Origin: the human T2T-CHM13v2.0 reference genome, Homo sapiens
Assembly (NCBI RefSeq): GCF_009914755.1
Contig: NC_060926.1
Direction: 5' to 3' (one strand)
Length of the DNA stretch: 64,000 bases
Each line of letters opens with the position of its first letter. Within the stretch, counting starts at the first letter, position 1. This document shows positions 27,206 to 56,186 of the stretch, one piece after another. A program made the translations under genes and the position numbers. The notes under the pieces are model-generated. The model had not been told where the DNA came from, made no database searches, and worked only from the letters and a program-made list of their open reading frames with translations.

Positions 27206-27291
27206 GTACTTTTATTTTATGTAGATCACCATCCCTTACTGAGTATCACATAACTGTTATTATAAATCTTGAATAAGAGATTACATGTTTT

Positions 27292-27611
<320 letters not shown>

Positions 27612-27874
27612 CTACATATTTCATACAGTATTCCAAAACCAAAAACAACACTATGCTTTGCTTTTCGTTACCATGAATCTATAAGTTATTAAGCTTTCAG
27701 TACTGCAAATATTGTCACATATTAACAGTTTGACTTGAAAATACGTGTAATTTCTACTAAAAATAGAAAAGAAAGGCCTTGTCTTTAGAAGCTTCCAAGG
27801 AACATTATAACAGAAGTTATATTTTCCACAATTTGGGTTCAATTAATCTTATATATTGCAATTGACTTAAATAA

Positions 27875-28135
27875 AATTTTAATTTTTGAACACTTTAAGG
27901 TTTACAGAAACATCGTGAAAATAGTATAATATTCCTGGTAAGTACCCAAACTCTGCTTTCTCTATTACTAAAATTTTATATTAGTGTGGTGCATTCATTA
28001 CAATTAAGGCATCAATATTGTCATATTATTATTATCTAAAGACCATACTTGTTCAGAATTCCTCAGTTTTTATTTAGTTTCCATTTTCTGTTCTAGTGTA
28101 CATCCTAGAATCTTATATTACATTTAGTCATTGTG
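27875..28135 (-). mobile_element. Old L1M 3'-end fragment
   Basis: tttaaggtttacagaaa...aatagtata...cattcattacaattaa...tattacatttagtc resembles L1MC ends. Confidence 0.5.
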
Positions 28136-28314
28136 AGACAGACTCCAGGTCAGTAAGTGCTGAAACAGGGGATGTTAAAAAAGAACCAACATAGATTACA
28201 AAAGGAAGACTCAAAGCTTCCAGAATGATTTTCTTTCTATCTAAAATCATTTTCTATCTTTCATCCTATCAGCACTCATAAATTACACACACTCATAACC
28301 TGCCACAATTTACT

Positions 28315-28692
28315 GGCAGATTGTGAAGCGGGAGCAGGCATGTCACACAGTGAAAGCAGGAACAAGAGAGTGAGGGGGGAGATACCACACACTTTTAAAC
28401 AACCAGATCTTTTGAGAGCTCACCTGCTATCATGAGGAGTACCAAGGAGATAGTACTAAACCATTCATGAGAAATCCACCCTCCTAATCCAGTCACCTCC
28501 CTCCAGACCCCACCTACCACACTGGGGATTACAGTTCAACATGAGATTTGGGTGGGGACACAGATCCAAACTATATCACAGGGGTTTCCCTATGTTGCTT
28601 AGGCTGGTCTCAAACTCCTGGCCTCAGGTGATCTTCCTGCCTCAACCTTCCAACGTGCTGGAATTAGAGGTATCAGCCACCATGCCCAGCCA
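28315..28692 (-). mobile_element. MST-type MaLR LTR (28315-28578) adjoining an Alu left-monomer fragment (28580-28692)
   Basis: ccacacacttttaaacaaccagatct...catgagatttgggtggggacacagatccaaactatatca, then aggctggtctcaaactcctggcctcaggtgatc. Confidence 0.8.
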
Positions 28693-29909
28693 GAAATTTC
28701 TTTCTCAAGGGGCTTTTCATCTCACTGGAAATTTTAGTTTAGGGATCTCCCAACTTACAAAGGGTTTGTGTTCCAAAATTTTGTTTCTAAGTCAGGTAGG
28801 CTCACTTTCCTACAGAAAATGAGAAGAAGCCAGTCCCAAAGCAAGCAATAAAAGCCTGTTGCCTCACAAGTGAACTATGATGTTGCTAAATCCATCAGGA
28901 GTAGTTTTACTTTTGCTCTTTGTTGAATGGGCTACTGTGGGCCTGTGGGGGCACCTAACCACCATTTATCTTATTTCTTTGAAGCAGGTCATGCTGTCAC
29001 GTGTGGTCAAAAGGGAATTAGTGATGATAATGGAGCTTTCTCTGCCTCTCTCCCTCTTGACTGCCAAGGTCCAGGGAAGTTCACATCTCAGTGGTCACGG
29101 GCTGGCCAAGTAGATCCCCACCAGTTGCTGGATAATGCCTGTGAACTACTGGCTAGCATCTATTCTGAAAACCTAGCTTCTGGTTTGCTTGTTTATTCAC
29201 CAGTATCTCACATAATTTTCTTATGACCATCTGGCACCTAATATAGATCCCAAAAGAGTTTAAGAGGATTTACCCTTTAGGCAAAAAATACTGGCAGTGT
29301 TTATAATCCCCTCAAAAAGAGAGAGGGAGAAAAAAAGAAAGAAGAAATGTTTTTAAAGGAAGAGATAGCACCATGTAACTATAAATAACTCTCTATATCA
29401 GACTGAAAATAAATTTTTGTTTTTTCTTTATTTTGGCTCATTTGGTAAGCTAACAAACTGGAAGAAAAGAACCAGTTTTAACTAAACAACTCTAAAAGAT
29501 TTCAGAATTTGAAAACTTAGAGTTATGAATAGATTTGATTCACTTAGCCCCAAAACTATCAAAAGAAGTATATAAAATATTAATAGTCACCAAAACCATT
29601 GAGCTATAGAATTCCAGATATTGAAATTCTAAGGAAATGTTGTTTTAGAATCAAATCATGTACTAGGCTGAAATTAAATCAAATACCATTACTGAGTATT
29701 GTTATTAGGATAAACATCTTTCCATACTTTGGTGAAATTGGAAATACTCTTGCAGAAGTGTTTTCATCTCTCACCCAGAAAAAGTAAATAATGACCTTCT
29801 TCCTTCTTCCACTTAATGTAAAATCCTACATTTACATATATTGTGTCATCCCTTGTTTTGTGATTATTTGCTTACAGATTTTCTCTAGGTGCTCTCTAAG
29901 CAGAGAGAA

Positions 29910-30165
29910 CAGGGTACTGGTTAAGATTGTAGATCTAGGGGATCACTGATCTAGGTCCTATTCCAAATTTGATTCCTCACCTGCTAAGCTTGCAAGTGCA
30001 ACTTATTTAAATTCTCTGAAGGTTAAATGTTTCATCTAAATAGGGATAATAATAAACACCTATAGCATAGAGTTGTTTGAGATTAAATGAGATAATACAT
30101 GTAAAATTATGTGCCTGGCATACAGCAAGATTGTTGTTGTTGTTGATGATGATGATGATGATGAT
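29910..30165 (+). mobile_element. MIR followed by a (GTT)n(GAT)n trinucleotide run
   Basis: tcatctaaatagggataataata...agagttgtttgagattaaatgagataatacatgtaaa...gtgcctggcataca. Confidence 0.8.
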
Positions 30166-31720
30166 AATATTTTTCTATCCCCAGTGCACAACTGCTTGAA
30201 CCTATTAGATAATCAATACATGTTTCTTGAACTGAGATCAATTTCCCCATGTTGTCTGACTGATGAAGCCCTACATTTTCTTCTAGAGGAGATGACATTT
30301 GAGCAAGATCTTAAAGAAAATCAGATGCCTTCACCTGACCACTGCTTGGTGATCCCATGGCACTTTGTACATCTCTCCATTAGCTCTCATCTCACCAGCC
30401 CATCATTATTGTATGTGCTGCCTTCTGAAGCTTGCAGCTGGCTACATCAGGTAGAATAAAATCATCCTTTCATAAAATAGTGACCTCCTTTTTTATTTGC
30501 ATTTCCAAAGCCAAGCACGTGGTAGGTAGACAACAAATGCTTGCTCCTGGGCTGCGCTAAAGGCATCTATAACCACTAAGCCCAAAGAGTGTGGTGTCCC
30601 TTCAAAAGGAAGGAGCCAGTGTTTATATCACTTTTTCTTGACCTTCACGGCTCCACTCAAAGCCCACCTCCAGCATGAGGCACTATCCAGTCCAATCCAC
30701 AGTGATCACTCCCTTTCTGAGTCCTTCTAGGAAATCAGACACAGTCATTTGAGGTGTGTGTTAGTAATCTTTCCTCAGATGCCCTGTGAGCTCTTTTGCA
30801 CAGTACCAAGGCATGTAATAGGCAGGAAACGTATTTAATTGCTTGGCTTAGTTCTAGTTTTCAATGTGTACTTCTCCAGAATTATCCAATTAACCCTAAC
30901 TTGAGAAGATAGGCAAACTGGATTTGCACACACTGGAGTCAATTCCTGATATCCCCGGGGGTGTGAATGAACAGAGGTCTTCTTGCTGGCTTCTGTAACA
31001 GTATCTCTCTTTGGCCAGCACCCAATTTTTGGAACCATTATGAGCACACAAAAACAGCATTTTACACAAATCAAGAAATAGCTCCCAACCATGTCTTTGT
31101 GGCATTGTTAAACAACAGTAAATTGTACTTTGAGTTCTATTTCCTCTAATTAAATGAAATGAGAAGTGGGCCCAAGTCCCCCAGAAAGAGACTGGAGGGA
31201 ACCACGATGTTTCCTGTGATTAGATACACCACTAAGGAAATCTGACCCTGAGCAACTGAAAGCTGCCTATTCTCATTAAGAAGAGCTACAGACTGACCCT
31301 TTTCAAAGACTAGTAACTGGACACATTTCTTTCACAAATTATCTTCTTTTCCCTTCTTCATACCAGGAATTCTCAGGGATTATAATCCTCATCAATATAA
31401 CAAGCCTCCAAAGTCATATTTTTTAACTTTGTGAAATGCCCTCCCACCTAACTACCCCATTTGACACCTGCAACCATCCTCTAGAGAGGCAGACAAGATC
31501 GACCGTCTCACTTTACAGAAGTGCAAAGAGTAGCTGGCCTAATGCCACAGCCAATGAACAGATGAAGGAGGCCTACAACCACCTAGTCTTCCCTACTTCT
31601 CCTCACTCCTCCCCTCTGACCTCCTTATGTCACCACTGACCAATGGATCACTGTGTGGCCGTTCAGCATCTTCCTATGCTGTGTCAGGCAAGAGAAATTC
31701 TGGAAAGAGAGCATCTCATG

Positions 31721-31726
31721 TTTATT
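31721..31726 (-). terminator. AATAAA polyadenylation signal of the candidate terminal exon
   Basis: Plus-strand tttatt, 135 nt downstream of the acceptor cattttctttccatatttcag. Confidence 0.45.
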
Positions 31727-33049
31727 AAGGAGACTGGGTGTCCTTGTAGAAAGTCCTGCCATGCACAACCCCGGTCTTAACTGATGTGTTTCACCATACT
31801 GAAGGCAAGTTGCCATCTAACATAGTTGAAGGCGAGCCAGTTGTGGTGATCTTTGTTCCTGCTGAAATATGGAAAGAAAATGAGGAAATGAGCTCATTTT
31901 CAAAGAAAATGAACATTCTTTCACATGAAAGAAATAGGAGCAAAGTGACAGGAGAGAAACAAAGCTTAGGGTTGGTGTGAGATACACAGACAGGGTGTTA
32001 GCCCCACAAACAGTGCTGCTGGGCCAAGTTAACTCCCTGTTTTTCCCTATATATGTGGTGTGGAAAAGCTATTTATAAAATGTGTTTAAATATTTAGGAC
32101 CAAATAAATCAACATTGTTGGGAAACATTGACTCTGACCAGAACTCATTTCCTCACCCTAGTCCAATGTGAATAACAAAATGAAGAATATCAGGATGATT
32201 CGAGACCAGGAATACTACAGATGTCCAACACTTCCACCTGGAATCCCCAAAGAGGCCCGCTTTTAGCCTCCACACTGGTTGGTGACCTGACATGAGAGAA
32301 ATGACAGAAATCTCAGAAGACTGGCCTCATGAATAATCTTCAGTTTCAATGTAACAAAGCAAGCCTTCTAGAAATTACCTGCCTCTGCAGTTCACTCTGC
32401 TGCTTCAGATGAAAATTTTCAGGTCTGTCTGCCACTGTAGTGAAGCACTGCTTTGGGTAGTGTCTGTGGAGAAACTTTTTAAAGGACATAGTTGAAATAT
32501 TGTGCTACAAACCAATTCTTGAACACCACTCATTTTGTCCTACCTCTCTGTGACCGTGAAAGACGGCTGTACTCTTGGCAAAGGTCATCTCTCTGTCATG
32601 AGTCTGGATCTCCTTTTCTTCTCCTGATTATCTGTCACTCAGTTATCCCCACTCTCTTCCACAACTTTAACTTCAGCTTCTCTATTCTAAGAGACTCTTC
32701 TCGCAGGCTCAAGGCTCTCCTACCCTCCATCATTCCTCCCTCTACCCCACACAGCCAGCATGTGTCCAGCTAGTCTATCCTTCAGCCAAACTTCCTTAGA
32801 AAGAGGACTTACCTCACTGTCCCTACCCCTCTACTCTCTGACTCACTTCTTAGCTCCATGACTGGGTTCTGGTTTCTTTCCCTTGCCTGTTGTGACTTCC
32901 TATGGACACAGCCAAAAATCATCACATAGTCCTGTTGTATGGCATCCCCACCATCTTGAAATGTCCTCTCCCTCAGTTCCTATGTGTTACCACACACGCC
33001 TGCCTTGGCTTCTCCCTCTAGTTGTTCCTTCTCTGTCTTCTGTGGGCTT

Positions 33050-33420
33050 CTTATTGTCTGCTCACTCCTTCTTCAGTGTCCTCTCATGGGCTTCCTTCCC
33101 TTCTCAGCTGATGCCATCACCTGGGGAATCACAGTTACTCAGCAGCACTGGGGCCTCTCTATCTCTATGCTGGTCATGCCTATGTGTGAGCTGCAGACCC
33201 AGTGGAATTTCCATTTGTGCATCCCATGCCCAGCCCACCCTCCACCAGCCTCGAATGCAGCTGTTCAGCCCTACCCCAGTCCTCAGAAAAGTTCCTCTCC
33301 CTGGATCCTCTTTTTCCTTCATGAGTGCCCGGTTGCCCAAGTCAAAAACCTGGGAGTGATATAAACTCCCCACACATCCAGTCAGTCACTCATCAACTCT
33401 ATTGATTCTGTCTGCTAAAT
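33050..33420 (+). mobile_element. L2 remnant
   Basis: gttgcccaagtcaaaaacctgggagtga...ccccacacatccagtcagtcac resembles the L2 3' region. Confidence 0.5.
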
Positions 33421-40600: not shown

Positions 40601-41354
40601 GAGTTTGTCTCATTTTGATCTTTGAGGCTGCTGACCTTTAGATGAGGTTTTCGTGGGGACTTTTTGGTTGATGTTGTTGTTGCTTTCTGTTTTTCTTTCG
40701 ACAGTCAGGTACCTCTTCTGTAGGGCTGCTGTGGTTTGCTGGGGATTCACTTCAAGCCCTATTTATCTGGGTCCCTCCCACACCTGAAGATGTCACCAGA
40801 GGGTGCTGGAGAACAGCAAAGATGGGACCCCACTCCTTCCTCTGGGATCTCTGTCCTTGAGGGGCACCCACCTGATGCCAGTAGAAATGCTCCTGTATAA
40901 GGTGTCTGGTGACCCACTGGGGTGTTTCACCCAGTTGAGGGGCACAGGATCCAGGACTTGCTTAATGAAGCACTTTGATTGTCCCTTTGGGAAGGGGGTA
41001 TGCTGTGCCGGGGAAAATCCCACTCATCTGGGCTGCCTGGAATCCTCAGAGTGAGCAGGGGGAAAGAACAAGTCTTCCGGTTTGTGGAGACAACAGCCAG
41101 CCACCCCTCCCACTAGGGACTCAGACCTAGAGAGATCAGAGTTCTCTCCCTAATTCCCTGGCTTGAGTTGCTGGAGTTCCTGCAGGGAGGCCCCACCCAG
41201 TGAGGAGGGATGGGTCAGGGTCAGCCTAAAGAGGCAGTCTGGCCATGATCTGCCACAGCCAGTATGCTGCGCTGTGGGGAATACCTCTTGGGACCAAGCC
41301 GTCCAGTCTTCCTGGCATCAGCAAAGGAAAAACAGCAGCCTGGATCTGTAGAAA

Positions 41355-41640
41355 TGGCTGCCGCCCTTCCTCCCCAGGAGTTCAGTGTCTTAGGCAGCTA
41401 GCAGCCACAGTGATGGCTGCTGTCCCTTCTTAGGGAGCTCAGTTTCCTCAGGCAGCAGGCAGCTGCAGTGATGATGACTGCCCCTCTCTTGGGAAGCTCA
41501 GTTGTCTTAGGCAGCCAGCAACCACAGTGATGATTGCTCCCCCTCCCCCAGGGAACTCAGAGGGTTTAGGCAGCAGGCAGCCACAGTGATGATGACCACC
41601 CCTCCCCAACTTGGGAACTCGGTAGTTTTAGGCAGACTCC
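41355..41640. repeat. ~60-bp tandem repeat (about 5 copies) in the L1 B 5'UTR
   Basis: Recurrent taggcagc..gcagccacagtgatgatg..ccct...gggaactcag. Confidence 0.8.
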
Positions 41641-44339
41641 AGCTGAGTGGCTGTTGAGAATCTGCATGGCTCTGTGGTTGGCACCCAAGGCCCTCGTGGT
41701 GTGGTCTCATGAGTGGGATCTTCTGATCTGTGGATTGCAAAGATCCATGGAAAAAGCAGTTTCCCAGGCTGGGTAGCATGCTCACTCACTGCCTCCCTTG
41801 GCTGGCTGAGGGTGACGGCTCCCCTTGCCCCATGTGGCTCCCAGGTGGGCCAATCCACCAGCCCATCTTTCCTTGTTCTCTATGGGTCACGGCAACCACC
41901 TAGTCAGTCCTGATCATAGAACCTGGATATGTCAGTTGCTGGTGCAGGATTTGCACACTCTTTTAGTTCTTCTCAGTGGGAGCCTCAAACTGCAGCTGCT
42001 TCTAGTCGGCTATCTTGCCCCTGCCCCCTTGTCCTTTTGAAAAATTATTGTTCATTTGAAATCTGTTTTGTCTGAAATTAGGATTGCAACCTCTGCTTTT
42101 TTTCTGTTTTCTATTTGTCTGGTAGATTTTTCTCCATCCTTTTAGTTTGAGACGATGAGTGTCATTATGTGTGAGATGGGTCTCTTGAAGACGACATACC
42201 ATTGGGTCTCACTTTTTTTTTTTTTAAATCTAGCTTGCCACTCTGTGCCTTTTAAGTGGGGCATTTGCCCATTTACATTCAAGGCTAGTATCGATTTGTG
42301 TAGATTTGATCTTGTCATTGTGCTGTTGGCTGGTTATTATGTTGGCTTTTTTGTGTGGTTGCTTTATAGTGTCACCGGTCTGTGTGTTTAAGTATGTTTT
42401 TGCATTAGCGTGTAGTGGTCTTTCCTTTCTATATTTAGTCCTCCTTTCTAAAATCTCTTGTAAGGCAGATGTGGTGGTAATGAATTACCTCAGAATTTGC
42501 TTGTCTGTAAATGATCTCATTTCTCCTTCATTTAGAAAGCTTAGTTTAGCTGTATATGAAATTCTTGGTTGAAGATTTTCTTTAATAATGTTAAATATAG
42601 TCCCCCAATCCCTTCTGGCTTGTAGGATTTCAGCTGAGAGATCTGCTGTTAGCCTAATGGGGTTCCCTTTGTAGATGGCCTGCCCTTTCTCTCTGGCTGC
42701 CTTTAACATATTTTCCCTCATTTCGACCTTGGAAAACCTGATGTTTATGTGTCTTGAGGATGGTCTTGTGTAGAATCTTGTAGGAGTTCTTTGTATTTCC
42801 TGAATTTGACTGTTGGCCTTTCTAGCAAGGTTAGGGAAGCTTTCAAAGATGATATCCTGAACTACGTTTTCCAAGTTGTTTGATTTCTCCACCTCCCTTT
42901 CAGAGATGCCAGTGATTTGTAGAATTGGCCTCTTTATATAATCCCATCCTCCTTGAAGGTTTTGTTCATTCTTTTTTATTTTTGTCCATCTTATTTTAGA
43001 GAACCAATCTTCAAGTTCTGAGATTCGTTCCTCAGGTTTTTTTTTCTGCTGTTAATACTTGTGATTGCATTGTGGAATTCTTGTATTGTGTTCTTCGGCG
43101 CTTTCAGATCGGTTAGGTTCTTTTTTATTATACCAGCTACTTTATCCTTCAGCTCCTGTAACACTTTACTGTTATTCTTATTTTCCTTGGATTGGGTTTT
43201 GCCATTCTCCTGAGTCTTGATGATTTTTTTTCCTATCCATATTCTGAATTATATTTATGTAATTCCAGACAGTTCATCCAGGTTAAGAACTCTTGTTGGA
43301 GAACTGGTGTGGTTGTTAGAAGGACATATGACACAGAGGCCATTTGAGTTACTGGAGTTCTTGCATTGGTTTCTTCTCATTTCCACCTATGGGTTTTCCT
43401 TTAATTGCAGTGTAGATTGAGTACAGTCCGTAGACTTATTTTCGGATGTTTTCACCAGGCTGAGGCTTTGTGCAGGGTCTTTATTTGAAGCTGACTTCTC
43501 ATTTCTGGTTTCAGAGGGGAGTATATTAGTAAGGTATTTTTGATGCTGAAGCTTTGGGATGTGATCCAGTAGGTGGCACTTGGGCTTACTGGTCAGTTGG
43601 TAGACTCTTGCTTGGTCATGTGGCTCCCCTATGTTTCCTTACAGTTGCAGCCATGTTCCCTCTCAATGATCTGAAAATGTGCTTCTCTCCCCCTTGAGTG
43701 CTGGCTGTAGGTCATGGCTTGGCACTCCTAGGCTGCCCACTGCAGCTCTGGGGCAATCTCAGTGTTTATATTTCTTTCCTAACTTTGAGGCAGAAGAGGA
43801 AGGGACATTAGTAGTGGTTGTAGCCAAGGGTCTTTTGTTTGTCTCCTCAGAGTTCCACCACCCCTGGAGAATACAGCAACTGTTTACTGCAATCAGCAAT
43901 CAGGATGGAGAATTCGTGCTGTGGGGGCCAATCCAGGGGTTCCCTGTCATGAGCAGTGGGGAGTGTGTAGAACCCATGAGAGATGGGCTTTGGTCAATTA
44001 AAGCTTGTTGAAGGTGTAGATAAGGGTGTTAGCTCCTTCATCAGTCTGAGGGTAGCAAGGACAGTTCCACTGCAGAAGCAGTGGCAGAGAGGCTTTCAGT
44101 TGCCCCTGGAGGCTCTCTCCAGGGAGTGGCTGAGTTGCTACTGGCTCAACAGTTCTGGTAGGGGGGGTTAGGTAGAGGTCCAGGCCTGCAAGACTTGCCT
44201 AGTGAGAAGATATAGGAATGGGAACCCAGGTAACAGTCTGGCCACTTTTCCATAGGGCTGCTGCAGTATGCCCAGGGCCCGCTCCAGTCTCTAGTAGCCT
44301 CAGATTTTCCAGTACCTGGAGTTATCATCAGTGAAGCCT

Positions 44340-45210
44340 GTGAAACAGCAAAGATGGCAGCCTACCGCTCCCTTTGGAAGCTTTGCCCTAGGGAGGTATG
44401 AATGAACTTGTTGCTGGCCCAAACACACCTGTAGGAGGTGGCTGGAGACCCCAGTTTGGAGGTTTTGCCCAGTGAGGAGGAATGGCATTGGGAAAGTGCT
44501 TAAAAAAGCAGTCTGGCCTCATTTTTATAGAGCAGCTGTGCTATGCTGAGGGTCCACATCACCCCCTGGTCTCCTTGGACACTCCAAAGACTGAAGGTTG
44601 AAGTGGCTAAGTTGCAAAAACAGCAAAGATGGTGGCCTGCCCCTCCATCAGGGAGCTCCAGCCCAGAAAAAATTGAAATCACTGTCAGCAGGAGAACACC
44701 AGTGGGGGTGGTTGGAGGCCCCAGTTGGGAAGTCCCAAACAGTGAGGAGGAATGAATCCGGGACCTACTTAAAGAAGCAGTCTGGCTATGCTTTTGTACA
44801 GCAGCTGTGCTGTGCTGGGGGGCCATATCCGCCCTAAGTCAGCTGGGACTCCTTAAAGCCCAAAGGCTGGAATGGCTAAGTTGCCAAAACATCAAATATG
44901 GCGGCCCACGCCTCCCTCAGGGCACTCCATCTCAGGGAGAATTCAAATCTCTGTCAGCCTGAGAATACCAGAGTGGGTAGCTAGAGGCCCTGGTTGGGAG
45001 GTCCTGCCCAGTGAGGAGGAATGGGATTGGGGACCTTCTTAAAGCAGTAGTCCGGCCATATTTTGGTAGAGTAGCACTGTGCTGTGCTAATGGATCCCTC
45101 TGTCCCTGGTCCGCTGAGACTCTCCAAATCCCGAAGGCTGGAGCAGCTAAGTTGCCCAAACAGCAAAGATGGTGGCCTACCCCTTCTCTCAGGAGCTCTG
45201 TCTCAGGGAG
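44340..45210 (-). repeat. ~270-bp monomer repeats (about 3 copies) in the L1 A 5'UTR
   Basis: cagcaaagatgg (or a variant) at about 44346, 44621, 44891 and 45161. Confidence 0.85.
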
Positions 45211-46082
45211 GCTCAACACTGTTGCTGGTGGCTGGCTGGAATTCCAAGCCAGTGGCTCTTATCCTGTGAGGTGCTGTGGAAGTGGGGCCTGCAGGCTGTT
45301 GCTGCTCAGCTCCCTGAATTCAGCCTCTTCCCTAGGGATATGTATGAGGGTCTCACCTCCCACTTTGCCACAGTTGCAGCTACTTTTGCAGGAAAGCCCA
45401 GGTACCTAAGGCTCCCAGGTCTCCATGTGTGCCTGAGTGGCTGCTGTGCCAAGATTCCACGTAGCTCTGTCAGACTGAAGGCCCTGGTAAAGTGGGTTCA
45501 TGAGAACTCTCGACCCAAGGATTGCAAAGATCCATGGAAAAAGCATGGGTTTCCAGGGTCACACATTCACTCACTGCTTCCCTGGGTGAGAGAGCTCCCC
45601 CTGGCTCTGTGGTACTCCCAGGTGGGCTGTCGTTTTGCCTTTCTTTTCTTCATTCTCCCTGGGTCAAGTTGTTTCCTTGGTTAGTCCCAATGTGAGTACC
45701 TGGATGTTTCAGTTGAAGGTGCAGTATTGACTCTCCCCTTGTGTTCCTCTCTGTGAGAGCCAAACACACTAGCTGCTTCAACTCGGCCACCTTGGCCAGC
45801 CCACTGCCCCCTCACTGCTATATTTTTACATATAACATTTACAACTCTATAAAGTACTTCATTGTACTCATTTTACAGGCGAAGATAGTTTAGACACACA
45901 AAGACTGAATAAGATCTAAGTCCTTTCCTTGTAAGATGCAAAATCTGGAATTGACAATGTACATAACTGCTACGTGTCTCAAACCTAAGATGTAATTAGG
46001 CATTTCTAAAGCTCACACTTTTTAAATGTTTAAATATTTTGTTAGAGTTTTAAAGAATGATTTAGTTAAAAAATACGATTAT

Positions 46083-46790
46083 GGGGGTGTGTGGCCAAGA
46101 TGACTGACTAGAAGAAGCTAGGGTGCACGGCTCTCATGGAGAGGAATGAAAAGGGCAAGTCAATACAGCACCTTCAACTGAAACAACCAGGTACTCGCAT
46201 TACTCACATAATCAAGGAAACAACTCCAGCCAGCCACCAGCAACAGTGTTTTACCTACCTGAGACTGACTTCCTAGGGGACAGGGCAGGCCACCATCTTT
46301 GTTGTTTGGGTAACTTAGCCATTCCAGCCTGTTGGGCTTTTGAGAACCCAAACCAACTGAGGGCAGAAGGGATCCCCCACGCAGCACAGCTGCTCTACCA
46401 AAATGTGGCCAGACTGCCTCTTTAAGTGGATCCCCAATCCATTCCTCCTCGCTGGGCGGGACCTCCCAACTGGGGCCTGCAGCTACTCCTGCAGGTGCTC
46501 TCAGGCTGACGGAGATTTGAATTCTCCCTGGGATGAGTTCCCTGGGGGAGAAGGGGGCCGCCATCTTTGCTGTTTGGGTGACTCAGTTATTCCAGTCTGT
46601 GGGCTTTGGAGAGTCCAAAGTGACTAGGGTGGAGGGGATCCCCAGAACAGCACAACTGCTCTATCAAATCATGGCAAGATTCTTTAAGTAGATCCCCGAT
46701 CCGTTCCTCACTGGGTGAGACCTCCCAAGTGGGGCTTCCACCCCTTAGTTCTAGAGCTGACAGAGATTTACATTCTCCCTTGGATAGAGT
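46083..46790 (+). mobile_element. 5' end of a second old L1 (element C), head-to-head with element A; 5'UTR only, with ~270-bp monomers
   Basis: ggccaagatgactgactagaagaagct...cagcaccttcaactgaaacaaccaggtactc is the reverse-complement homolog of 45690-45800; monomers at 46290-46785. Confidence 0.85.
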
Positions 46791-46989
46791 TGTCAAGGTC
46801 CTGCCAATTAAGAAGAAATGGGTCAGGAACCTGCTAAAAGAATCTGCCTGACCAAGATTTTGTAGAGTAGCTGTGTTGTGCTGGGAGATCCCTTCTGCCC
46901 CGGTAGGTATGGATTCCACAAAACCCTCAGGCTGGAGTGGCTAAGTTGCACAAACAGCAAAGATGGCAGCTCATCTTTGGCCATTTCAT

Positions 46990-49900
46990 CCCAAGAATTC
47001 AAATATCTTTGGGCCCGAGAACACCAGCAGGAGTGACTGGAGGTCCCAGTGCGGTGATCCCTCACCAGGCAGGACTTTGAGACCGCCATGCCAGGGATAA
47101 TTGAAATCTCTGGCAGCCTGAGGACACTGGAGGAGGGGGTGGGGTGGTGGCTGGGGGCCCGAGTTGAAAGGAACTTCACTGGGCAGGAACTGGAGACCTC
47201 CATGCCAGGGAGAACTCGAATCTCTGTCAGCATGAGAACACAGGTAGGGGTGGCCGGAGGGCCCAGTTAGGAGAACCCTCACTGGGTGGGACCTCAAGAA
47301 CTCCATGCTAGGGAAAATTCAAATCTCTGTCAGCCCCAGGACACTGGCGGGGGTGGCTGGAGGCCCCATATGGGAGGTCCCTCACTGGGTCAGACACCGA
47401 GACCTCCGTGCCAGAGAGAATTCACATCTCTGTCAGCCCCAGAACACTACCGGGGTGGTTGCAGGCCCTAGTTGGGAGGTCCTCACTGGGCGGGACCCCG
47501 AGACCTCCATGCCAGGGAGAATTCAAATCTCTGTCAGCCCCAGAACACTGGCAGGGGTGGCCAGAGACCCCAGTTGGGAGGTCGCTCACTGGGCCAGACC
47601 CCGAGACCTCCATGCCAGGGAGAATTCAAATCTCTGTCAGTCCCAGAATAAAGGCGGGGGTGGCCGGAGGCCCCGGTTGGGAGGTCCCTCACTGGGCGAT
47701 ACCCCAAGACCTCCATGCCAGGGAGAACTCAAATCTCTGTCAGCCTGGGAACACCAGTGGGGGTGGCTGGACACCGCAGCTAAAAGGACCCTCATTGGGT
47801 GGGACCTTGTGAATTACATGCCAGGGAGAATTCAAATCTCTGTCAGCCTGCCTTGTGAATTACATGCCAGGGAGAATTCAAATCTCTCTCAGCATGAGAA
47901 CACCAGTGGGGTTGGCTGGAGGCCCCGCTTGGGAGGTCCCTCACTGGGCAGGACCTCAAGACCTCCACACTAGGGAGAATTCAAATCTCTGTCAGCCCCA
48001 GAACACTGGCGGGGGTGGCTGCAGGCCCCCGTTGGGAGGTCCCTCACTGGGCAGGACCCCGATACCTCGATGCCAGGGAGAATTGAAATCTCTGTCAGCC
48101 CCAGAATATTGGCGGGGGTGGGGGGAGTTGGCTGGAGGCCTGAGTTGGAAGGACCCTCACTGGGCAGGAACCGGAGACCTCCATGCCAGGAAGAATTCAA
48201 ATCTCTTTCAGCATGAGAACACAGGTGTGAGTGGCCAGAGGTCTCAGTTAGGAGAACCCTAACTGGGTGGGACCTCACAAACTCCATGCCTGGGAGAATT
48301 CAAATCTCTGTCAGCCCCAGAACACCAGCGAGGGTGGCTGCAGGCCCCGGTTGGGGGGGTTCCTCACTGGGCAAGACCCCGAGACCTCCATGCCAGGGAG
48401 AACTCAAATCACTGTCAGCCTGAGAACACCAGTGGGATTGGCTGGAGACCCCAGCTAAAAGGACACTCATTGGGCGGGACCTTGAGAACTACGTGCCAGG
48501 GAGAATTCAGATCTCTGTCAGCCCGAGAACACCGGTGGGGGTGGCTGGAGGCCACGGTTGAGAGGTCCCTCACTGGGCAGGACCTCAAGACCTCCATGCC
48601 AGGGAGAATTCAAATTTCTGTCAGCCCCAAAACACTGGCAGGGGTGGCTGGAGGCCGAAGTCCTTCACTGGGCCAGACGCTGAGACCTCCATACCAGGGA
48701 GAATTCAAATCTCTGTCATCCCAAGAACACCGGTGGGGGTGGCTGGAGACCCAATTGGGAGGTCACTCACTTGGCAGGACCTGAAGACCTCCATGCCAGG
48801 GAGAATTCAAATCTCTGTCAGCCCCAGAACACTGGCGGGGTTAGCTGGAGGCCCCAGTTGGGAGGTCCCTCACTGGGCCAGACCCTGAGACCTCCATTCC
48901 AGGGAGAATTCAAACCTCTGTCAGCCCCAGAACACTGGCGAGGGTGGCTGGAAGCCACGGTAGGGAGGTCCCTCACTAAGCAGGACCTAAAGACCTCCAT
49001 GCCAGGGAGAATTCAAATCTCTGTCAGCCCCAGAACACTGGTGGGGTTAGCTGGAGGCCCCAGTTGGGAGGTCCCTCACTGGGCCAGACCCTGAGACCTC
49101 CATTCCAGGGAGAATTCAAATCTCTGTCAGCCCCAGAACACTGGCAGGGGTGGCTGCAGGCCCCAGTTGGGAGGTCCCTCACTGGGCGGGACCCCAAGGC
49201 CGCCATGCCAGGGAGAACTCCAACCTCTGTCAGCCCCAGAACACCAGTGGGGTTGGCTGGAGACCCCAGCTAAAAGGACCCTCATTGGGTAGGACCTCAA
49301 GAACTAAGTGCCAGGGAGAATTCGAATCTCTGTCAGCCTGAGAACACCAGGGGTGGGTGGCTGGAGGCCTGAATTGAAAAGACCCACAGCGGACAGGAAG
49401 TGGAGACCTCCATGTCAGGAAGAGTTCAAATCTCTGTCAGCATGAGAACACAGGTGAGGGTGGCCGGAGGCCCCAGTTAGGAGAACCCTTACTGGGCGGG
49501 ACTTCAAGAACCAAGAACTGCATACCTGGGAGAATTCAAATCTCTGTCAGCCCCAGAACACTGGCGGGGGTGGCTGGAGGCCCCAGTTGGGAGATCCCTC
49601 ACTGGGCAGGACCTAAAGACCTCCATGCCAGGGAGAACTCAAATCACTGTCAGCCTGAGAACACCGGTGGGATTGGCTGGAGACCCCAGCTAAAAGGACC
49701 CTCATTGGGCGGGACTTTGAGAACTAGGTGCCAGGGAGAATTCAGATATCTGTCAGCCCAAGAACACCGGTGGGGGTGGCTGGAGGCCACGGTTGAGAGG
49801 TCCCTCACTGGGCAGGACCTCAAGACCTCCATGCCAGGGAGAATTCAAATCTCTGTCAGCCCCAAAACACTGGCAGGGGTGGCTGGATGCCGAGGTCCTT

Positions 49901-50693
49901 CACTGGGCCAGACCCTGAGACATCCATACCAGGGAGAATTCAAATCTCTGTCAGCCCAAGAACACCGGCGGGGGTGGCTGGAGGCCCGATTGGGAGGTCA
50001 CTCACTTGGCAGGACTTAAAGACCTCCATGCCAGGGAGAATTCGAATCTCTGTCAGTCCCAGAACACTGACAGGGGTGGTTGCAGGCCCCAGTTGGGAGG
50101 TCCCTCACTGGGTGGGACCTGGAGACCTCCATTCCAGGGAGAATTCAAATCTCTGTCAGCCCCAGAACACTGGTGGGGGTGGCTGGAGGCCCCAGTTGGG
50201 AGGCCCCTCACTGGGCCACACCCCAAGACCTCCATGCCAGAGAGAATTCAAATCTCTGTCAGCCCCAGAACACTGGAGGGGGTGGCTGGAGGCCCCAGTT
50301 GGGAGGTCCCTCACTGGGCAAGATCCTGAGACCTCCATGCCAGGGAGAACTCAAATCTCTGTCAGCCTGAGAACACCGGAGGGGGTGGCTGGGGACCCCA
50401 GGTAAAAGGACCCTCATTGGGCAGGACCTTGAGAACTACGTGCCAGGGAGAATTCAGATCTCTGTCAGCCCTGGAACACCAGCGGGGGTGGCTGGAGGCC
50501 ATGGTTGGGAGGTCCCTCACTGGGCCAGACCCTGAGGCCTTCATGGCAGGGAGAATTCAAATCTCTGTCAGCCCCAGAACACTGGCAGGGGTTGCTGGAG
50601 GCCTCGGTTGGGAGGTCCCTCTCTTGGCAGGACCTCAAGACCTCCATGCCAGGGAGAATCCAAATCTGTCATCCTGAGAACACTGGCGGGGTG
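46990..50693 (+). repeat. 103-bp GC-rich satellite, left array (about 37 units)
   Basis: Consensus CCAGGGAGAATTCAAATCTCTGTCAGCCCCAGAACACTGGCGGGGGTGGCTGGAGGCCCCAGTTGGGAGGTCCCTCACTGGGCAGGACCTCAAGACCTCCATG. ORF starts repeat every 103 bp (50053/50156, 50362/50465). Confidence 0.95.
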
Positions 50694-50774
50694 GGCATAG
50701 CAAGGTGCTCTACCAAAATGTGGCCATACTGGGTCTTTAAGAAGGTCTGTGATCCATTCCTCCTCACTGGGCGG

Positions 50775-51768
50775 GACCTCCCAACCAGGGCCTCCAGCCA
50801 CCCCCACCAGTGTTCTCGGGCTGGCAGAGATTTGAATTCTCCCTGGCATGGAGGTCTGGAGGTCCTGCCCAGTGAGGCACCTCCCAACCGGGGCCTCCAG
50901 CCACCCCCACCAGTGTTCTGGGGCTGACAGAGATTTGAATTCTCCCTGGCATGGAGTTCTGGAGGTCCTGCCCAGTGAGGCACCTCCCAACCGGGGCCTC
51001 CAGCCACCCCCGCCAGCGTTCTGGGGCTGACAGAGATTTGAATTCTCCCCAGCATGGAGGTCTCGAGGTCCCGCCCAGTGAGGGACCTCCCAACAGGGGC
51101 CTCCAGCCACCCCCGCTGGTGTTCTCAGGCTGACAGAGATTTGAATTCTCTTTGGGATGGAGGTCTTGAGGTTCCATTCAGCGAGGGACCTCCCAATAGG
51201 GGCCTTGAGACACTCCCGCCAGTGTTCTGGGGCTGACAGAGATTTGAATTCTCTCTGGCATGGAGGTCTTGGGGTCTGGCGCAGTGAGGGACCTCCCAAC
51301 TAGGGCCTCCAGCCACCCCTGCCAGTGTTCTGTGGCTGACAGAGGTTTGAATTCCCCCTGGTATGGAGGTCTTGAGGTCCTGCTTAGTGAGGGACCTCCC
51401 TACCGTGGCTTCCAGCCACCCTCGCCAGTGTTCTGGGGCTGACAGATATTTGAATTATCTTTGGGATGCGGTTCTTGGGGTCCCTTCCAGTGAGGGACCT
51501 CCCAACCGGGGCCTCCAGCCACCCCCACCAGTGTTCTGGGGCTGACAGAGATTTGAATTCTCTCTGGCATGGAGGTCTTGGGGTCTGGCCCAGTGGGGGA
51601 CCTCCCAACTGGGGCCTCCAGCCACCCCCACCAGTGTTCTGGGGCTGACAGAGATTTGAGTTCTCCCTGGCATGGAGGCCTGGAGGTCCAGCCCAATGAG
51701 GGTCCTTTCAGCTGGGGCCTCCAGCCACCCACACCGGTGTTCTCAGGCTGACAGAGATTTGAATTCCT
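50775..51768 (-). repeat. 103-bp satellite, right array in inverted orientation (about 10 units)
   Basis: gagatttgaatt every 103 bp from about 50828 to 51755; ORF starts at 50848, 50951, 51054, 51260, 51363, 51466, 51569 and 51672. Confidence 0.95.
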
Positions 51769-52352
51769 GGAATGAGTTCCCACGCGCAAGAGCAAGGAGC
51801 CATCTTTGCTGTTTGTGCAACTTAGTCGTTACAGCCCACGGGCTCTGGAGAATCCATACCTACCGGGGCAGAAGGGATATATCATCAGCACAGCACAGCT
51901 ACTCTACAAAATCTTAGAAGGCAGATTCTTTTACCAGGTTCCTGATCCATTCCTCCTTACTGGGCAGGACCTCGACAACTCCTTCCCGGGGAGAATGTAA
52001 ATCTCTGTCAGCTCGAGAACACCGGTGGGGTGGTGGAGGCCCCAGGTGGGAGGTCCCACCCAGAGAGGAGGAAAGAATCAGGGATCTGTGTAAAGAATCT
52101 GCCTGGCCACTATTTGGTAGAGCAGTTGTGATGTGCTGGGGGATCCCTTCCACCCCCAGTCATTTGGGACTCTCCAAAGCTGGCCCCATCCTCTCCCCCA
52201 GGCCCCAGTTGGAAGGACTCCCACTGGGCAGGAACTCCAGAACTCCCTCCCAGGGAGAATTCAAATTCCTCTCAGCCCCAGACACCAGTGGGGTAGCTGG
52301 AGGCCCTGGTTGGGAGGAACAGATTGGGAATCCCCTTAAAGATTCTGTCTGG

Positions 52353-52633
52353 GGCCGGCCACGGTGGCTCATGCCTGTAATCCCCATACTTCGGGAGGCC
52401 CAGCAGGGTGGATCACTTGAGGTCAGGAGTTCCAGACCAGCCTGGCCAACATGGTGAAACCCCATCTCTACTAAAAATAAAAAAATTCGCTGTGCGTGGT
52501 GATGGGCACCTGTAGTCCTAGCTACTTGGGAGGCTGAGGCAGAAGAACTGCTTGAACCAGGGCTGTGATGGGTGCTGTAAGCCGAGATCATGCCACTGCA
52601 CTCCAGCCTGGGTGACAGAGCAAGACTCCTTCT

Positions 52634-52667
<34 letters not shown>
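52353..52667 (+). mobile_element. Alu (AluS-like) with a 33-nt poly-A, inserted in the right arm of the palindrome
   Basis: Full dimer flanked on both sides by L1-monomer sequence. Confidence 0.93.
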
Positions 52668-52672
<5 letters not shown>

Positions 52673-53053
52673 TGGGCACATGTTGGGAGAGCAGCTGTGC
52701 TATTCTAGGGATCCCTTCTACCCCACCAGTTTGCACTGTCCAAAGCCCACAGGCTGGAATGGCTGTGTCACCCAAACAGCAAAGATGGCGGCCAGCTCCT
52801 CCCCTGGGAAACTCATCCCAGGGAGCTCCAGCATCCTTGGCACAAGCTGGCAAGTATTGGCTGAAATGACAGGTGCCCTGGAGAAATTTGAAAGGGTTAT
52901 CCACATCCGGCTGCTGATTATTTTCACAATTTTCCTGAGATGTCGTTATCATTCTTTGACTCTCCTTTCTATAGTCAGACATTTGGCTCTCAGAGGTGAC
53001 TTTCTGGCTGAAGAATGTGGATTCGTCACTGTCTTGTGCTCAATGTAGAGGGG

Positions 53054-53235
53054 GCTCTTAATTCCAGAAATGTCCATATCTGATGAAAGAAAGCGAAGAA
53101 TGAAACAAAAAGAGATATGTACCGTATTCATAAGTAGATTCAATGCTCTTAATTCCAGAAATGTCCATATCTGATGAAAGAAAGCGAAGAATGAAACAAA
53201 AAGAGATATGTACCGTATTCATAAGTAGATTCAAT
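53054..53235. repeat. Perfect 91-bp tandem duplication
   Basis: 53054-53144 equals 53145-53235, with GCT microhomology at the junctions. Confidence 0.95.
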
Positions 53236-54165
53236 GCTATTAAGATGTCAGTTCTTTCCAATGTATAGATTCAATGCAATTCTACTCTAAATGAAAATGT
53301 TTATATGGAGAGGCAAAAGACCTTGAATAGCTAACACCATATTGAAGGAGAAGAACAAACTTGGAGGACAGACACTACTCAATTTCAAGACTTACCCTAA
53401 AGCTACAGTAATGGAGACAGTGTGGTATTAGTGAAAGAACAAACGGATAAAATGAGATAGAGAGTTCACAAATAGAAACACATTAATACATTCGATTAAT
53501 TTTTGACAAAAAAGTAAAGGCATTATGATGATGAAACAGTTTTTTCAGGAAGGGCTGCTGGAATACCTGGATATCCACATGCAAAAAAAAAATAAATTGC
53601 AGACCTTACACCCCCACCAAAATTAACTCAAAATGGATCAGCAACATAAATATACAAAAAACTATAAAATTTATAGAAGATAATATAGAAGGAAATACAG
53701 ATTATCTTGGGTTTAATGATGACCTTTAGAAAAAACACCAAAGTTGAAGTCAATAGAAGAAAGAATTGACAAGCTGGACTTGATGAAAATGTAACATTTT
53801 TACACCATTAAAGACACTGAAAGAAAAGAGAAACCACAGATGGAAAAAAATTTGCCAAAACGTATCTGATTAAGAACTATTATTCAAAACATATTAGTAT
53901 TCTTAAAGCTGAGCAGTAAAAGACATGAGCTAAAGACCTTAACAAGTACCTCACCAAGTAAATTATACAAATGGAAAATAAGCATATGTAATGAGGCTAC
54001 ACATAATATTTCCTCAGAGAAATGCAACCATGAGATGCCACTGCACACGTATTAGAATAACCAAAATCTAGAACCACTGACAACATCAAACGCTGGCAAG
54101 GATGTGGAGCAAGAGGAAACTTCATTCATTGCTTGTGGGAATGCAAAATGGTGCAGTCACTTCTT
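53192..54165 (+). mobile_element. Old L1M (L1MC-like) ORF2 3' fragment
   Basis: aagatgtcagttctt...aaagctacagtaat..agacagtgtggtatt...ggatgtggagcaa..ggaa..tcattcattgct.gtgggaatgcaaaatgg. Confidence 0.8.
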
Positions 54166-54179
54166 GAAAGTTGTATTCT

Positions 54180-54860
54180 ATGTACCTCAACAGCATGGCC
54201 TTCACTGTTCATATTCCTATTATCATTTTGGTCGACCACTTAACCAAGGTCTAATTAAGTTCCACAAGTTTCCTCATCTTCCTGTCTTCTTTGCCTATTA
54301 CCCAGTTCCAAAGCAAATTCTGCATTATCAGGTGTTTTTATAGCAAAACCCCACTCCTTGGTACTAATTTCTGTGTTAGCAACACAGAATAACACAGAAA
54401 AGAGCAACACGGAAAAACACAAATTTTTGTGTTGCTATAAAAAAATAGCTGAGACTAGGTAATAAGGTATAAGGAACAGGTATAAGACTAGGTATAAGGA
54501 ACAGAGGTTTGTTTGGCTCACAGTTTTGCAGGCTGTAGAAGAAGAATGGCAGTGGCATCTGCACAGCTTCTGGTCAGGGACCCAGAAGGCTTTTACTTGT
54601 GGCTAAAGGTGAAGAGACAACGGGTATGACACACATGGCTAGAGAGGTAGGAAGAGAGGGGAGAGGTGCCACACTGTTTTAAACAACCACCTTTCGTGTA
54701 ATGCAGTGAGAACTCACTCATTAGTGAAAAAAGGGCAAAAAGCTATCCAGGAGAGATCAACCACCATGACCCAAACACCTCCCACTAGGTCCCACCTCCA
54801 ACATTGGGGATCAAATCTCGACACAATATTTGGAGGGTACAAATTTGCAAACAATATCAC
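54180..54860 (-). mobile_element. MST-type MaLR LTR with adjoining internal sequence
   Basis: attacccagttccaaagc...accccactccttggtactaattt (internal); tttggctcacagttttgcaggctgta...acacctcccactaggtcccacctccaacattgggga (LTR). Confidence 0.8.
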
Positions 54861-55500
54861 TCTCTTTTTGTCTTTAACTTTGGACAATTTGATTATAGTG
54901 TATCTTGTTGTGAGTCCCTGGATTCACCTTATTTGGTTTCCTTTGGGCTTTCTGGATCAGGCTTTCTGTTTTCTTCCCCATGCTTGATAAATTCTCTGTC
55001 ATTATTCCTTTAAACACTTTTCCGTTCCTTTCTTCCTCACTTCTCCTTCAGGCATGCCAATAATGTGTGAGTGGTCCTGCTTGATGGTGTCCCATAACTC
55101 TCTAAAGTTGTCTTCACTCCGTTTGCATTATCTTTTTTTCTGATCCTCAGGTTAGATAATTTCCAGTGACCAGTCTCAAAGTTCACTGATAGATTCTATT
55201 AATGGACACCTCTATTAAATTTTTTCAGTTCAGTTACAGTACACTTTAGATCTATGATTTGTTTGACATTATTGTATAACGTTTTTCCTTTTCTTGAAGT
55301 TCTCAACTTGTTCTTGCAAAGCTATCTTGACCTCAGTGATTATTGTTATGACCATTATTTGGAAATCTCTGTCAGATAAATTACATATCTGCACTTCACT
55401 CAGGTGCTGGAGATTTATCTTGTTTTCTTGCTTTGAATATATTTCCCTGTTTCTTCATTTTTCCTCGACTCTCTCTGTTGGTTCCCGTGCATTTGATAAG
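54860..55500 (-). mobile_element. Old L1M ORF1-region fragment
   Basis: tttttgtctttaactttggacaatttgattatagtgtatcttg...tgatggtgtcccata... antisense ORF1-type sequence. Confidence 0.65.
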
Positions 55501-56186
55501 ACTGGCCTCATGTAGGAAAAGGATCTCACCAAACTTTCCAGCCAGAGATCTTCAGGTACCTCTCAAGTCCTTGTGTGCTCTAGTATTGACTGTTTTTGGT
55601 GGCTCCCTGGAACTTAGGATGTGCCACGCCTTGTCAGTAACCAGAAATTGGTTAAGGTAGGAGCCAGACAATCCAGATGTAGCTAGAAAGTTAGAAGGCT
55701 GGAGGAGTGTTTCAGTTCTTTCTAGCTACATGATGAAGATTAGTATGGACATTTATCTCCCACTCTCTCTCCATTAAGCTTGGTAGAGGATCTGTGACAA
55801 ACACCTATGCACACTCTGGATGCAGCCTCTGATCCTGAGGAGATAGCTTCTGAATGTGGGCCCATTGTATGCTTACTTCTTTGTTTTCTATGGTCTAAAT
55901 ACATTCAAAAATACAAAATCCTGTCGACTCACAGAGCAGAGTTCTTAAGAAAACAGTTCCTTGGGCACTAACCACGGAGGTTGTAGAATTTCAATGCATA
56001 ATCAAGCTCCTTCTGGGAGCTTGATTCAATGCATAATCAAGCTCCTTCCGGGAAGAATGGGTAGGCTTGGATTTATTACTGGGTTGAACCCGACATAAGA
56101 CTGGTAGTGTCAAACTATGGTTCCATCTGCCAGATGAATTATACTTTGTAAGCCACATTAGCCCCCATGATGCCAGTATTTAAATA

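What the first reader, a model, noticed from the sequence alone, without database searches (positions are those of the whole stretch)
46520..52830. The satellite lies in the arms of a ~6.3-kb asymmetric palindrome
Seen: 46600-46990 is the reverse complement of about 51780-52180, including the private motif ggattc..ccggtaggtatgg / ccatacctaccgg and the same chimeric junction. 46525-46660 matches 52690-52825 inverted, and array orientation flips at about 50695. The arms expanded unequally (about 37 versus 10 units), and only the right arm has an Alu. Inference: a foldback inverted duplication followed by independent amplification. If transcribed it would form more than 1 kb of dsRNA (ADAR, endo-siRNA or piRNA substrate); as DNA it could mediate inversion polymorphism and arm-to-arm gene conversion.
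Basis: partly seen in the sequence, partly recalled or inferred. Interest (0 to 1): 0.75.

Follow-up and report, generated by a model that had tools for sequence, protein, structure and literature searches.

The report
Edited satellite hairpin behind ANKRD36 genes
Just behind each of the three ANKRD36 genes on human chromosome 2 lies an old mirror-image repeat built from a piece of a jumping gene; its two halves share a freshly copied stretch, and published RNA-editing clusters likely map onto it, so it likely folds these genes' run-on RNA into a very long double-stranded hairpin.

Summary
The inverted structure is real. The core arms (46603-50696 and 50773-52180) share private changes and a strand-switch junction found only here and in two chr2 paralogues. 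The outer pair that makes it 6.3 kb is only narrowly supported. The 103-bp unit is the 3' end of an old L1 5'UTR monomer plus a short inverted piece. Amplification was not fully independent: a 72-bp tract with 7 derived changes is identical in both arms and absent from the 4%-diverged paralogue. The right arm is fused into the last ANKRD36B exon about 100 nt before the place where related exons on chr10 carry AATAAA, and no canonical signal follows on that strand. In published THP-1 data (PMC8313407), five intergenic A-to-I regions (19 clusters) lie behind the three genes; using recalled hg19 gene ends, checked by an adenosine test (11 of 20,000 by chance), they fall on the arms and the neighbouring head-to-head L1 ends. 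Predicted duplex: about 860 bp in the array plus 324 bp in the flanks. Verdict: a non-Alu, satellite-built counterpart of inverted-Alu hairpins; function untested.

The parts
46085..46524 (+). 5' end and first 269-bp monomer (m1) of an old L1 5'UTR; host of the structure; the rest of this L1 is missing
   Evidence: matches other L1 5' ends in the window at 69-79%; subfamily label L1PA13-16 type is recalled, not tested
46525..46795 (+). monomer C ending in strand-switch junction J (outer left flank)
46796..46993 (-). monomer D, antisense; inverted copy of E; holds the private 28-mer
46994..50696 (-). left satellite array, about 36-37 units of 103 bp, with variant unit types and a recent 12-unit block duplication
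48917..48988 (-). 72-bp tract identical to right-arm 51375-51446, 7 derived states; likely recipient of an arm-to-arm transfer
50154..50264 (-). second likely transferred unit: 3 differences in 111 bp from right-arm 51540-51650; nearest match in the paralogue's left array has 8
50697..50772 (+). centre: antisense-to-sense junction and 76-bp spacer of ordinary L1 monomer sequence that runs into the first right unit
   Evidence: same junction in the paralogue
50773..51766 (+). right satellite array, 9.7 units
51767..52180 (.). right core flank: monomer E (sense), junction J read backwards, monomer F (antisense)
52181..52350 (-). truncated unit with a third J junction and the 3' part of monomer G
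52351..52667 (+). Alu with 33-A tail and a decayed target-site duplication, inserted in monomer G; antisense on the ANKRD36B transcript
   Evidence: AluS label recalled
52668..52825 (-). 5' part of monomer G, outer end of the right arm
52822..52826 (.). fusion point between L1-derived arm and the ANKRD36B last-exon sequence; about 4 nt of microhomology
   Evidence: three related loci (two chr10, one chr18) diverge from the window here
52887..53079 (-). RefSeq last exon of ANKRD36B; only a weak AATAAT hexamer (52917-52922) before its end
   Evidence: annotation in the finding
44343..45815 (-). second old L1 5'UTR, head-to-head with the first; independent insertion, but extends the predicted duplex by about 440 bp and likely holds edited sites

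Best explanation
This is an old inverted duplication of a locus-specific, L1-derived 103-bp satellite, fused to the last exon of the ANKRD36 genes, that likely arose by microhomology template switching, has likely been patched by arm-to-arm copying, and likely folds read-through RNA into an ADAR-edited hairpin of more than 1 kb. Steps: (1) shown: unit = about 66 nt of monomer end + about 24 nt of the next monomer + about 14 nt inverted, switching at a 4-nt match; inferred: template switching made it. (2) shown: arms descend from one segment (K2P 0.16, younger than the host L1s at 0.21-0.26, four to five times older than the paralogue split at 0.02-0.04); inferred: roughly 40-60 million years old (calibration recalled). 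(3) shown: identical 72-bp tract in both arms; inferred: right-to-left conversion after the paralogue split. (4) shown: fusion upstream of a conserved hexamer and no canonical signal on the strand for 7 kb; inferred: weak 3' end, read-through. (5) published editing clusters mapped here by recalled coordinates plus an adenosine test; inferred: the arms are the duplex. (6) most likely consequence: editing and nuclear retention or decay of read-through RNA, as for inverted Alus; probably a by-product rather than a selected device.
For: Descent. Unit anatomy. Conversion: longest identical left/right run 70 columns against 34.6 in column shuffles, 0 of 3,000; 7 derived states in one run, 1 of 3,000; the tract has 0 mismatches in the other arm and at least 7 everywhere else in four arrays; exact matches of 50 bp or more: 7 within this copy, 1 within the paralogue, 2 and 0 across. 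Fusion: (AATAAA in 2 of 3 related loci, CATAAA in the third). Folding: 2,081 nt across the centre -1,747 kcal/mol against -843 for left array alone and -894 to -910 for 4 shuffles; duplex 855-876 bp, 11% unpaired, longest helix 52-57 bp, beyond the marks that PMC8313407 gives for MDA5-stimulating inverted Alus. Editing: that paper uses ANKRD36C as its example of an intergenic cluster behind a 3'UTR; five regions with 8, 5, 4, 1 and 1 clusters, editing 0.07-0.45 lower without ADAR; 8 of 8 region ends beyond the Alu tail fall on A with shifts 0, -2, -3. Nearest opposite-orientation Alu in the window is 8.4 kb away. ANKRD36/B/C RNAs are as cytosol-poor (-1.19, -0.98, -1.01) as MALAT1 (-0.97).
Against: The hg19 gene ends are recalled (a search for them found nothing), and the adenosine test failed under the two plain conventions and passed only with a fitted width convention and per-locus shifts; individual sites and the figure were not seen. 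My first conversion statistic (largest count of shared derived states) was not significant (P 0.26); the run statistics were chosen afterwards. No conversion in the flanks. A one-step origin of the unit needs a return point upstream of the exit point, a class not seen among 794 human-chimp events (PMC5453318), so at least two steps are likely. Other isoforms end 9.7 kb upstream at a canonical AATAAA (62581), so read-through may be minor; the regions are lowly expressed. Use of the paralogues' hexamer is untested. Low cytosolic level could be decay, since the last exon is non-coding. The only cluster assigned to ANKRD36B itself maps to the neighbouring L1 (45036-44839), not to the satellite; the ANKRD36 copy is 99.97% identical, so reads cannot be told apart.
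Confidence: 0.72

Rival explanations
1. Inert fossil: the palindrome is real but is only rearrangement debris; the editing reflects trace read-through and local or L1/Alu pairing, with no effect on ANKRD36 RNA.
For: CpG depleted (o/e 0.14-0.31); flanks decayed to 84% with no conversion; low expression and almost no response to hnRNPC loss (1 of 20 rows shown flagged significant); upstream canonical poly(A) site; no Rfam match.
Against: 19 editing clusters passed coverage and frequency filters; two right-arm regions are less cytosol-poor (-0.40, -0.54) than MALAT1; arrays still exchange sequence.
Confidence: 0.45
2. Two independent insertions: the arms are separate L1 or composite-element copies that landed head to head and only look like a duplication.
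For: The region is a pile of L1 5'UTRs, and the neighbouring head-to-head L1 pair reaches 77-79% without common local descent; the outer pair lies within the control range.
Against: 32 of 32 junction matches and 6 of 6 private-motif matches are in the three paralogous loci; 31 shared derived states; no dispersed element carries the junction among the candidates scored.
Confidence: 0.04
3. The shared array tracts are not conversion but an old unit kept in both arms and lost twice from the paralogue, or convergence at CpG sites.
For: The paralogue's right array lacks three units, probably by deletion; the second tract rests partly on common variants; the count statistic was not significant.
Against: 0 differences in 72 bp where arms differ by 16-18% and paralogues by 2-4%; 3 of the 7 shared states occur in only these 2 of 42 units; the left copy sits between two units that are 2% apart.
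Confidence: 0.08
4. Selected regulatory module: the hairpin is kept to retain or silence ANKRD36 RNA, or to yield endo-siRNA/piRNA in the germ line, and conversion preserves its pairing.
For: Kept in all three full genes; nuclear-type distribution of the RNAs; long perfect helices come from converted tracts.
Against: It simply travels with the duplicated gene end; no conversion where sequence is unique; listings for ANKRD36 with piRNA or dsRNA gave no title or abstract start on this; no small-RNA data were available.
Confidence: 0.15

Closest known systems
Inverted Alu repeats (irAlu) in extended 3'UTRs and read-through RNA, edited by ADAR1 (PMC8313407)
   Same: Imperfect intramolecular duplex behind a gene's 3' end, ADAR-dependent editing clusters, about 11-14% unpaired; that paper already shows ANKRD36C as an example locus.
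   Different: Built from an L1-derived satellite and L1 monomers, not from two Alus; 855-876 bp with helices of 52-57 bp against 232 bp and 28 bp for an Alu pair from this window; many alternative registers; arms come from one duplication and exchange sequence.
Transposon-derived satellites and minisatellites (table in PMC6947457; T2T repeat catalogue, bioRxiv 10.1101/2021.07.12.451456)
   Same: Tandem array grown from a piece of a retroelement; higher-order blocks; spread only by segmental duplication.
   Different: Each unit carries its own inverted insert and two strand switches; arrays face each other in a palindrome; confined to three loci. The text seen of the T2T preprint does not mention ANKRD; its supplementary list of new arrays could not be seen.
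Sex-chromosome palindromes with arm-to-arm gene conversion (PMC3723533, PMC8327919; listing and abstract start only)
   Same: Inverted arms around a spacer with copying between arms.
   Different: Those exceed 99.9% identity and are far larger; here arms of 4.1 and 1.4 kb are 82-84% identical and conversion is limited to repeat units.
Four-point template-switch mutations and MMBIR-type rearrangements (PMC5453318)
   Same: Short reverse-complement segment copied from nearby sequence at a few matching bases.
   Different: The unit needs a return upstream of the exit point, a class that paper did not observe; here the product was amplified and then duplicated in inverted form.

Membership tests
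Inverted duplication (palindrome by descent) | Arms closer to each other than to any dispersed relative, with shared derived states | tested here: met
   core arms
Inverted duplication (palindrome by descent) | Same for the outer pair that defines the 6.3-kb outline | tested here: inconclusive
   153 against 150 bits; 0.767 within control range
Simple foldback duplication | Two orientation blocks mirrored about one short spacer | tested here: not met
   four orientation blocks, unequal arms, left arm ends inside a unit; later deletion could explain it
Transposon-derived satellite | Head-to-tail units whose sequence traces to a dispersed element | tested here: met
Named human satellite or T2T new array | Match to a Dfam/Repbase or T2T entry | not testable with these tools
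Converting palindrome (X/Y type) | Arm identity above 99% kept by conversion along the arms | tested here: not met
   K2P 0.163; 0 concerted, 48 arm-fixed sites of 364
Converting palindrome (X/Y type) | Recent sequence transfer between arms | tested here: met
   array only; (first statistic not significant)
Inverted Alu pair | Two oppositely oriented Alus close together on one RNA | tested here: not met
   nearest opposite Alu 8.4 kb away
ADAR-edited long dsRNA | Can form a duplex over 300 nt, under 20% mismatched, with a helix of 37 bp or more | tested here: met
   predicted; marks
ADAR-edited long dsRNA | Transcribed and carrying ADAR-dependent editing clusters | tested here: met
   published tables; placement rests on recalled coordinates checked
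MDA5/PKR ligand | Cytosolic access and sensor activation | not testable with these tools
   only relative cytosol levels seen
Endo-siRNA or piRNA source | Small RNAs from both arms | not testable with these tools
   no small-RNA data; listings gave no lead
Four-point single template switch | Order of switch points among those observed in human data | tested here: not met
   unit needs return before exit

The most novel reading that the evidence does not exclude
The rearrangement that built this satellite palindrome also removed the natural poly(A) signal of the ANKRD36 last exon, turning the three genes into standing sources of one of the longest non-Alu double-stranded RNAs in human cells; ADAR1 editing keeps it nuclear and silent, arm-to-arm conversion keeps renewing its perfect helices, and unit number tunes how immunogenic it is when ADAR1 fails.
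Probability: 0.2. Interest if true: 0.85.

Novelty: new variant of a known kind. Interest (0 to 1): 0.6.

Why it matters
Which endogenous RNAs provoke MDA5 or PKR when ADAR1 is lost is an open question, and attention is on inverted Alus (own knowledge; PMC8313407 takes that view). This locus offers a defined non-Alu candidate several times longer than an Alu pair, in three copies, already edited in published data but hidden by multi-mapping, and easy to test by deleting one arm. It also shows conversion between arms only 82-84% identical, confined to repeat units, and a satellite whose unit records a template switch in an L1 promoter. If inert, it still explains an editing hotspot and marks the 3' breakpoint of the ANKRD36 gene family.

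Tried and rejected
Largest count of shared derived states as a conversion test: not significant (P 0.26 here, 0.98 in the paralogue), because divergent unit types dominate it. Conversion in the unique flanks: none. The head-to-head L1 pair (45815/46085) as a larger palindrome by descent: rejected, 79% at the 5' ends against 76% to an unrelated L1, K2P 0.21-0.26. A dispersed element carrying the junction: none. The ancestral sequence beyond the break elsewhere on chr2: only the two chr10 loci found, 2 of 2 candidates, but the search missed the known chr18 relative, so it is weak. Rfam: 0 matches in 43000-56000. PRDM9-type 13-mer (recalled motif) and classic G-quadruplex pattern: 0 in the arrays. 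Adenosine test with plain coordinate conventions: no solution within 40 nt for two of three loci when all ends were forced to one offset. Two papers asked for by recalled id were not held (published T2T repeat paper; L1 subfamily paper), so the L1 subfamily name and ages stay recalled. ANKRD36 mentions in PMC10043753 (a chr1 pseudogene site), PMC11463134 (coding variants) and PMC13308034 (none) do not bear on this locus. The five regions are not among the 197 rows of Data S6.
Full report
Observation. Self-comparison shows two 103-bp arrays in opposite orientation, 46994-50696 and 50773-51766, with inverted matches of 77-84%. A unit search gives 37 hits on the left, some partial, and 10 on the right. 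The flanks 46603-46967 and 51799-52180 are inverted copies (K2P 0.163 over 364 columns). Against 39 control monomers from 16 other L1 loci, the inner pair D/E shares 158 of 194 columns (controls 0.668 +- 0.040, max 0.747) and 31 derived states (control max 20); C/F shares 152 of 187 and 21 states (control max 0.809 and 18). The controls were picked for likeness to the unit, which makes the test conservative. Genome-wide, a query across the junction aligns through it only to the three opposite arms (85-86%, 244-253 bits); dispersed L1s start at query position 49 or later and reach 135 bits; 40 of 289 candidates were scored. The private 28-mer has 6 matches with up to 3 mismatches, all exact, one per arm in three loci. 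The outer pair is weaker: best hit but 153 against 150 bits (40 of 529 scored), and inside the control range over the whole monomer.

Copies. The whole structure occurs three times on chr2: here, at 97.771 Mb (8 mismatches and 1 gap in 28,980 columns) and at 96.494 Mb (93-96%). I take these as ANKRD36B, ANKRD36 and ANKRD36C; the last two names are recalled from position. The diverged copy has 30 and 7 units and the same centre junction, so the flip is no assembly error.

Anatomy. Everything from 46085 to 52825 except the Alu is L1 5'UTR: a 5' end, then 269-bp monomers (subfamily label recalled). Orientation runs sense (46085-46795), antisense (46796-50696), sense (50697-51974), antisense (51975-52825). 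The unit is the last 66 or so nt of a monomer, about 24 nt of the next, then a switch to the opposite strand at a 4-nt match, about 14 nt of inverted copy, and a return. The pattern for this switch has 32 matches in the genome, all in the three loci, control 0. The flank junctions at 46790, 51985 and 52240 are the same switch; in the first two the inverted copy runs on for a whole monomer. Template switching at microhomology is the likely cause. One switch-and-return would need the return point upstream of the exit point, which PMC5453318 (passages and section 6 read) did not see among 794 events, so two or more steps are likely. The order of events cannot be fixed from three copies.

Age. Arms K2P 0.163-0.173, paralogues 0.019-0.038, independent L1 copies 0.21-0.26. 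With recalled primate calibrations the duplication is some 40-60 million years old.

Exchange between arms. 75 of 76 units were aligned (one 46-bp fragment dropped); left and right majorities differ at two polymorphic columns. 48917-48988 and 51375-51446 are identical over 72 bp with 7 derived states, 3 of them seen in only these 2 of 42 units; the best match anywhere else in the four arrays has 7 or more mismatches. My first statistic, the largest count of shared states, was not significant (P 0.26). Run-based statistics, chosen afterwards, gave 0 of 3,000 and 1 of 3,000 here and 105 and 45 of 3,000 in the paralogue. A second unit, 50154-50264, is 3 of 111 from right-arm 51540-51650, whose orthologue exists in the paralogue's right arm (2 differences) but not in its left (8). 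Both point to right-to-left copying. The unique flanks show 48 arm-fixed and 0 concerted sites of 364. Block duplications differ between paralogues, so amplification was partly independent.

Right boundary. Sequence beyond 52825 has three relatives, two on chr10 and one on chr18 (6 of 6 candidates scored). All three diverge from the window at 52822-52826 and continue with non-L1 sequence that holds AATAAA (two) or CATAAA (one) about 100 nt on. The window's minus strand has no AATAAA or ATTAAA from 53100 to 46000; only AATAAT 35 nt before the RefSeq end. The next canonical signal is at 43485; other isoforms end upstream at one (62581). Inference: the rearrangement cut off the exon's poly(A) site and favours read-through. 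Use of the relatives' hexamers is untested.

RNA. Folding 2,081 nt across the centre gives -1,747 kcal/mol, 782 long-range pairs and 5 helices of 30 bp or more, against -843 and none for the left array alone and -894 to -910 for 4 shuffles. Duplex estimates: array 855-876 bp, core flanks 324, outer pair 138, head-to-head L1s 440. PMC8313407 (seen: passages, section 8 part 1 of 2, section 31, searches in Data S5-S8; not seen: figures, Data S1 and S3, single sites) names ANKRD36C as an example of an intergenic editing cluster behind a 3'UTR in control THP-1 cells. Its tables list, padded by 1 kb, hg19 chr2:97929308-97934139 (8 clusters), 97934940-97938703 (5), 96499680-96503581 (4), 96494454-96496519 (1) and 98100074-98102273 (1), with editing 0.07-0.45 higher in hnRNPC-targeted than in ADAR+hnRNPC-targeted cells. 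I found these by searching number prefixes, so others may exist. With recalled gene ends they map to window equivalents 52837-50007 and 47204-45443; to 87-1,984 nt behind the diverged copy (its right arm and centre) and 7,147-7,210 nt (neighbouring L1); and to 45036-44839. Forcing all ends to one offset under plain conventions failed. Allowing a shift beyond the Alu tail and one fitted width convention, 8 of 8 ends fall on A with shifts 0, -2 and -3; random displacement does this in 11 of 20,000 trials. This backs the placement but is not a liftover. The nearest opposite Alu is 8.4 kb away. Negative values mean cytosol-poor (MALAT1 -0.97, ACTB +0.40): the genes score -0.98 to -1.19, far regions -1.17 to -1.67, right-arm regions -0.40 and -0.54. 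Nuclear retention fits; decay of a transcript with a non-coding last exon fits too.

Literature. No paper held ANKRD36, satellite and T2T together. The listings showed no title or abstract start describing this palindrome. The T2T repeat preprint (passages and section 5) has no ANKRD mention, but its closed supplement may list the array. LINE-1-derived satellites are known from other mammals (PMC6947457, table passage). PMC5753468 gave only subfamily names. PMC3723533 and PMC8327919 were seen as listings only.

Verdict. Real, old, locus-specific palindrome; works like an oversized inverted-Alu hairpin but is not one; converts like a palindrome only within its repeats. Editing at the locus is in print as an example, without this explanation as far as I could see. 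New variant of a known kind; interest 0.6; function untested.

Noticed in passing
window 53054-53243: A 91-bp tandem duplication (98% identical) doubles the splice acceptor of the ANKRD36B last exon; two copies here, one in the diverged paralogue. It may give a second acceptor 91 nt upstream.
   Followed up: partly
window 23644-24653: A 29-bp AT-rich array, 33.7 copies at 99% identity, that is about 76% self-complementary; resembles a palindromic AT-rich repeat and is likely variable in length.
   Followed up: no
window 44343-46790: Two independent old L1 5'UTRs lie head to head 270 bp apart and would add about 440 bp of duplex; two or three published editing regions likely map here.
   Followed up: partly
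window 46603-46967 vs 51799-52180: Arm differences have a low transition share (28 transitions, 25 transversions) compared with 41:15 between L1 monomers and 75:36 between paralogues, and are clumped between exact runs of 22-29 bp; error-prone synthesis or old patchy conversion are possible.
   Followed up: no
window 52351-52667: The Alu is antisense on the ANKRD36B transcript with a 33-U tract 220 nt past the annotated end, the arrangement that hnRNPC is said to mask; one right-arm region was flagged significant on one day only.
   Followed up: partly
window 25384-33229: The lncRNA APPAT lies 13 kb further on, on the same strand as ANKRD36B; it might be fed by the same read-through.
   Followed up: no
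G000:C2:96494040-96499700: The diverged copy's gene reads on the + strand of this assembly, while PMC8313407 describes ANKRD36C as minus-strand in hg19; this fits a large inversion between assemblies (recalled).
   Followed up: no
window 41354-41635: A 59-bp repeat, about 4 copies, in a third, older L1 5'UTR into whose body the minus-strand L1 appears nested.
   Followed up: no
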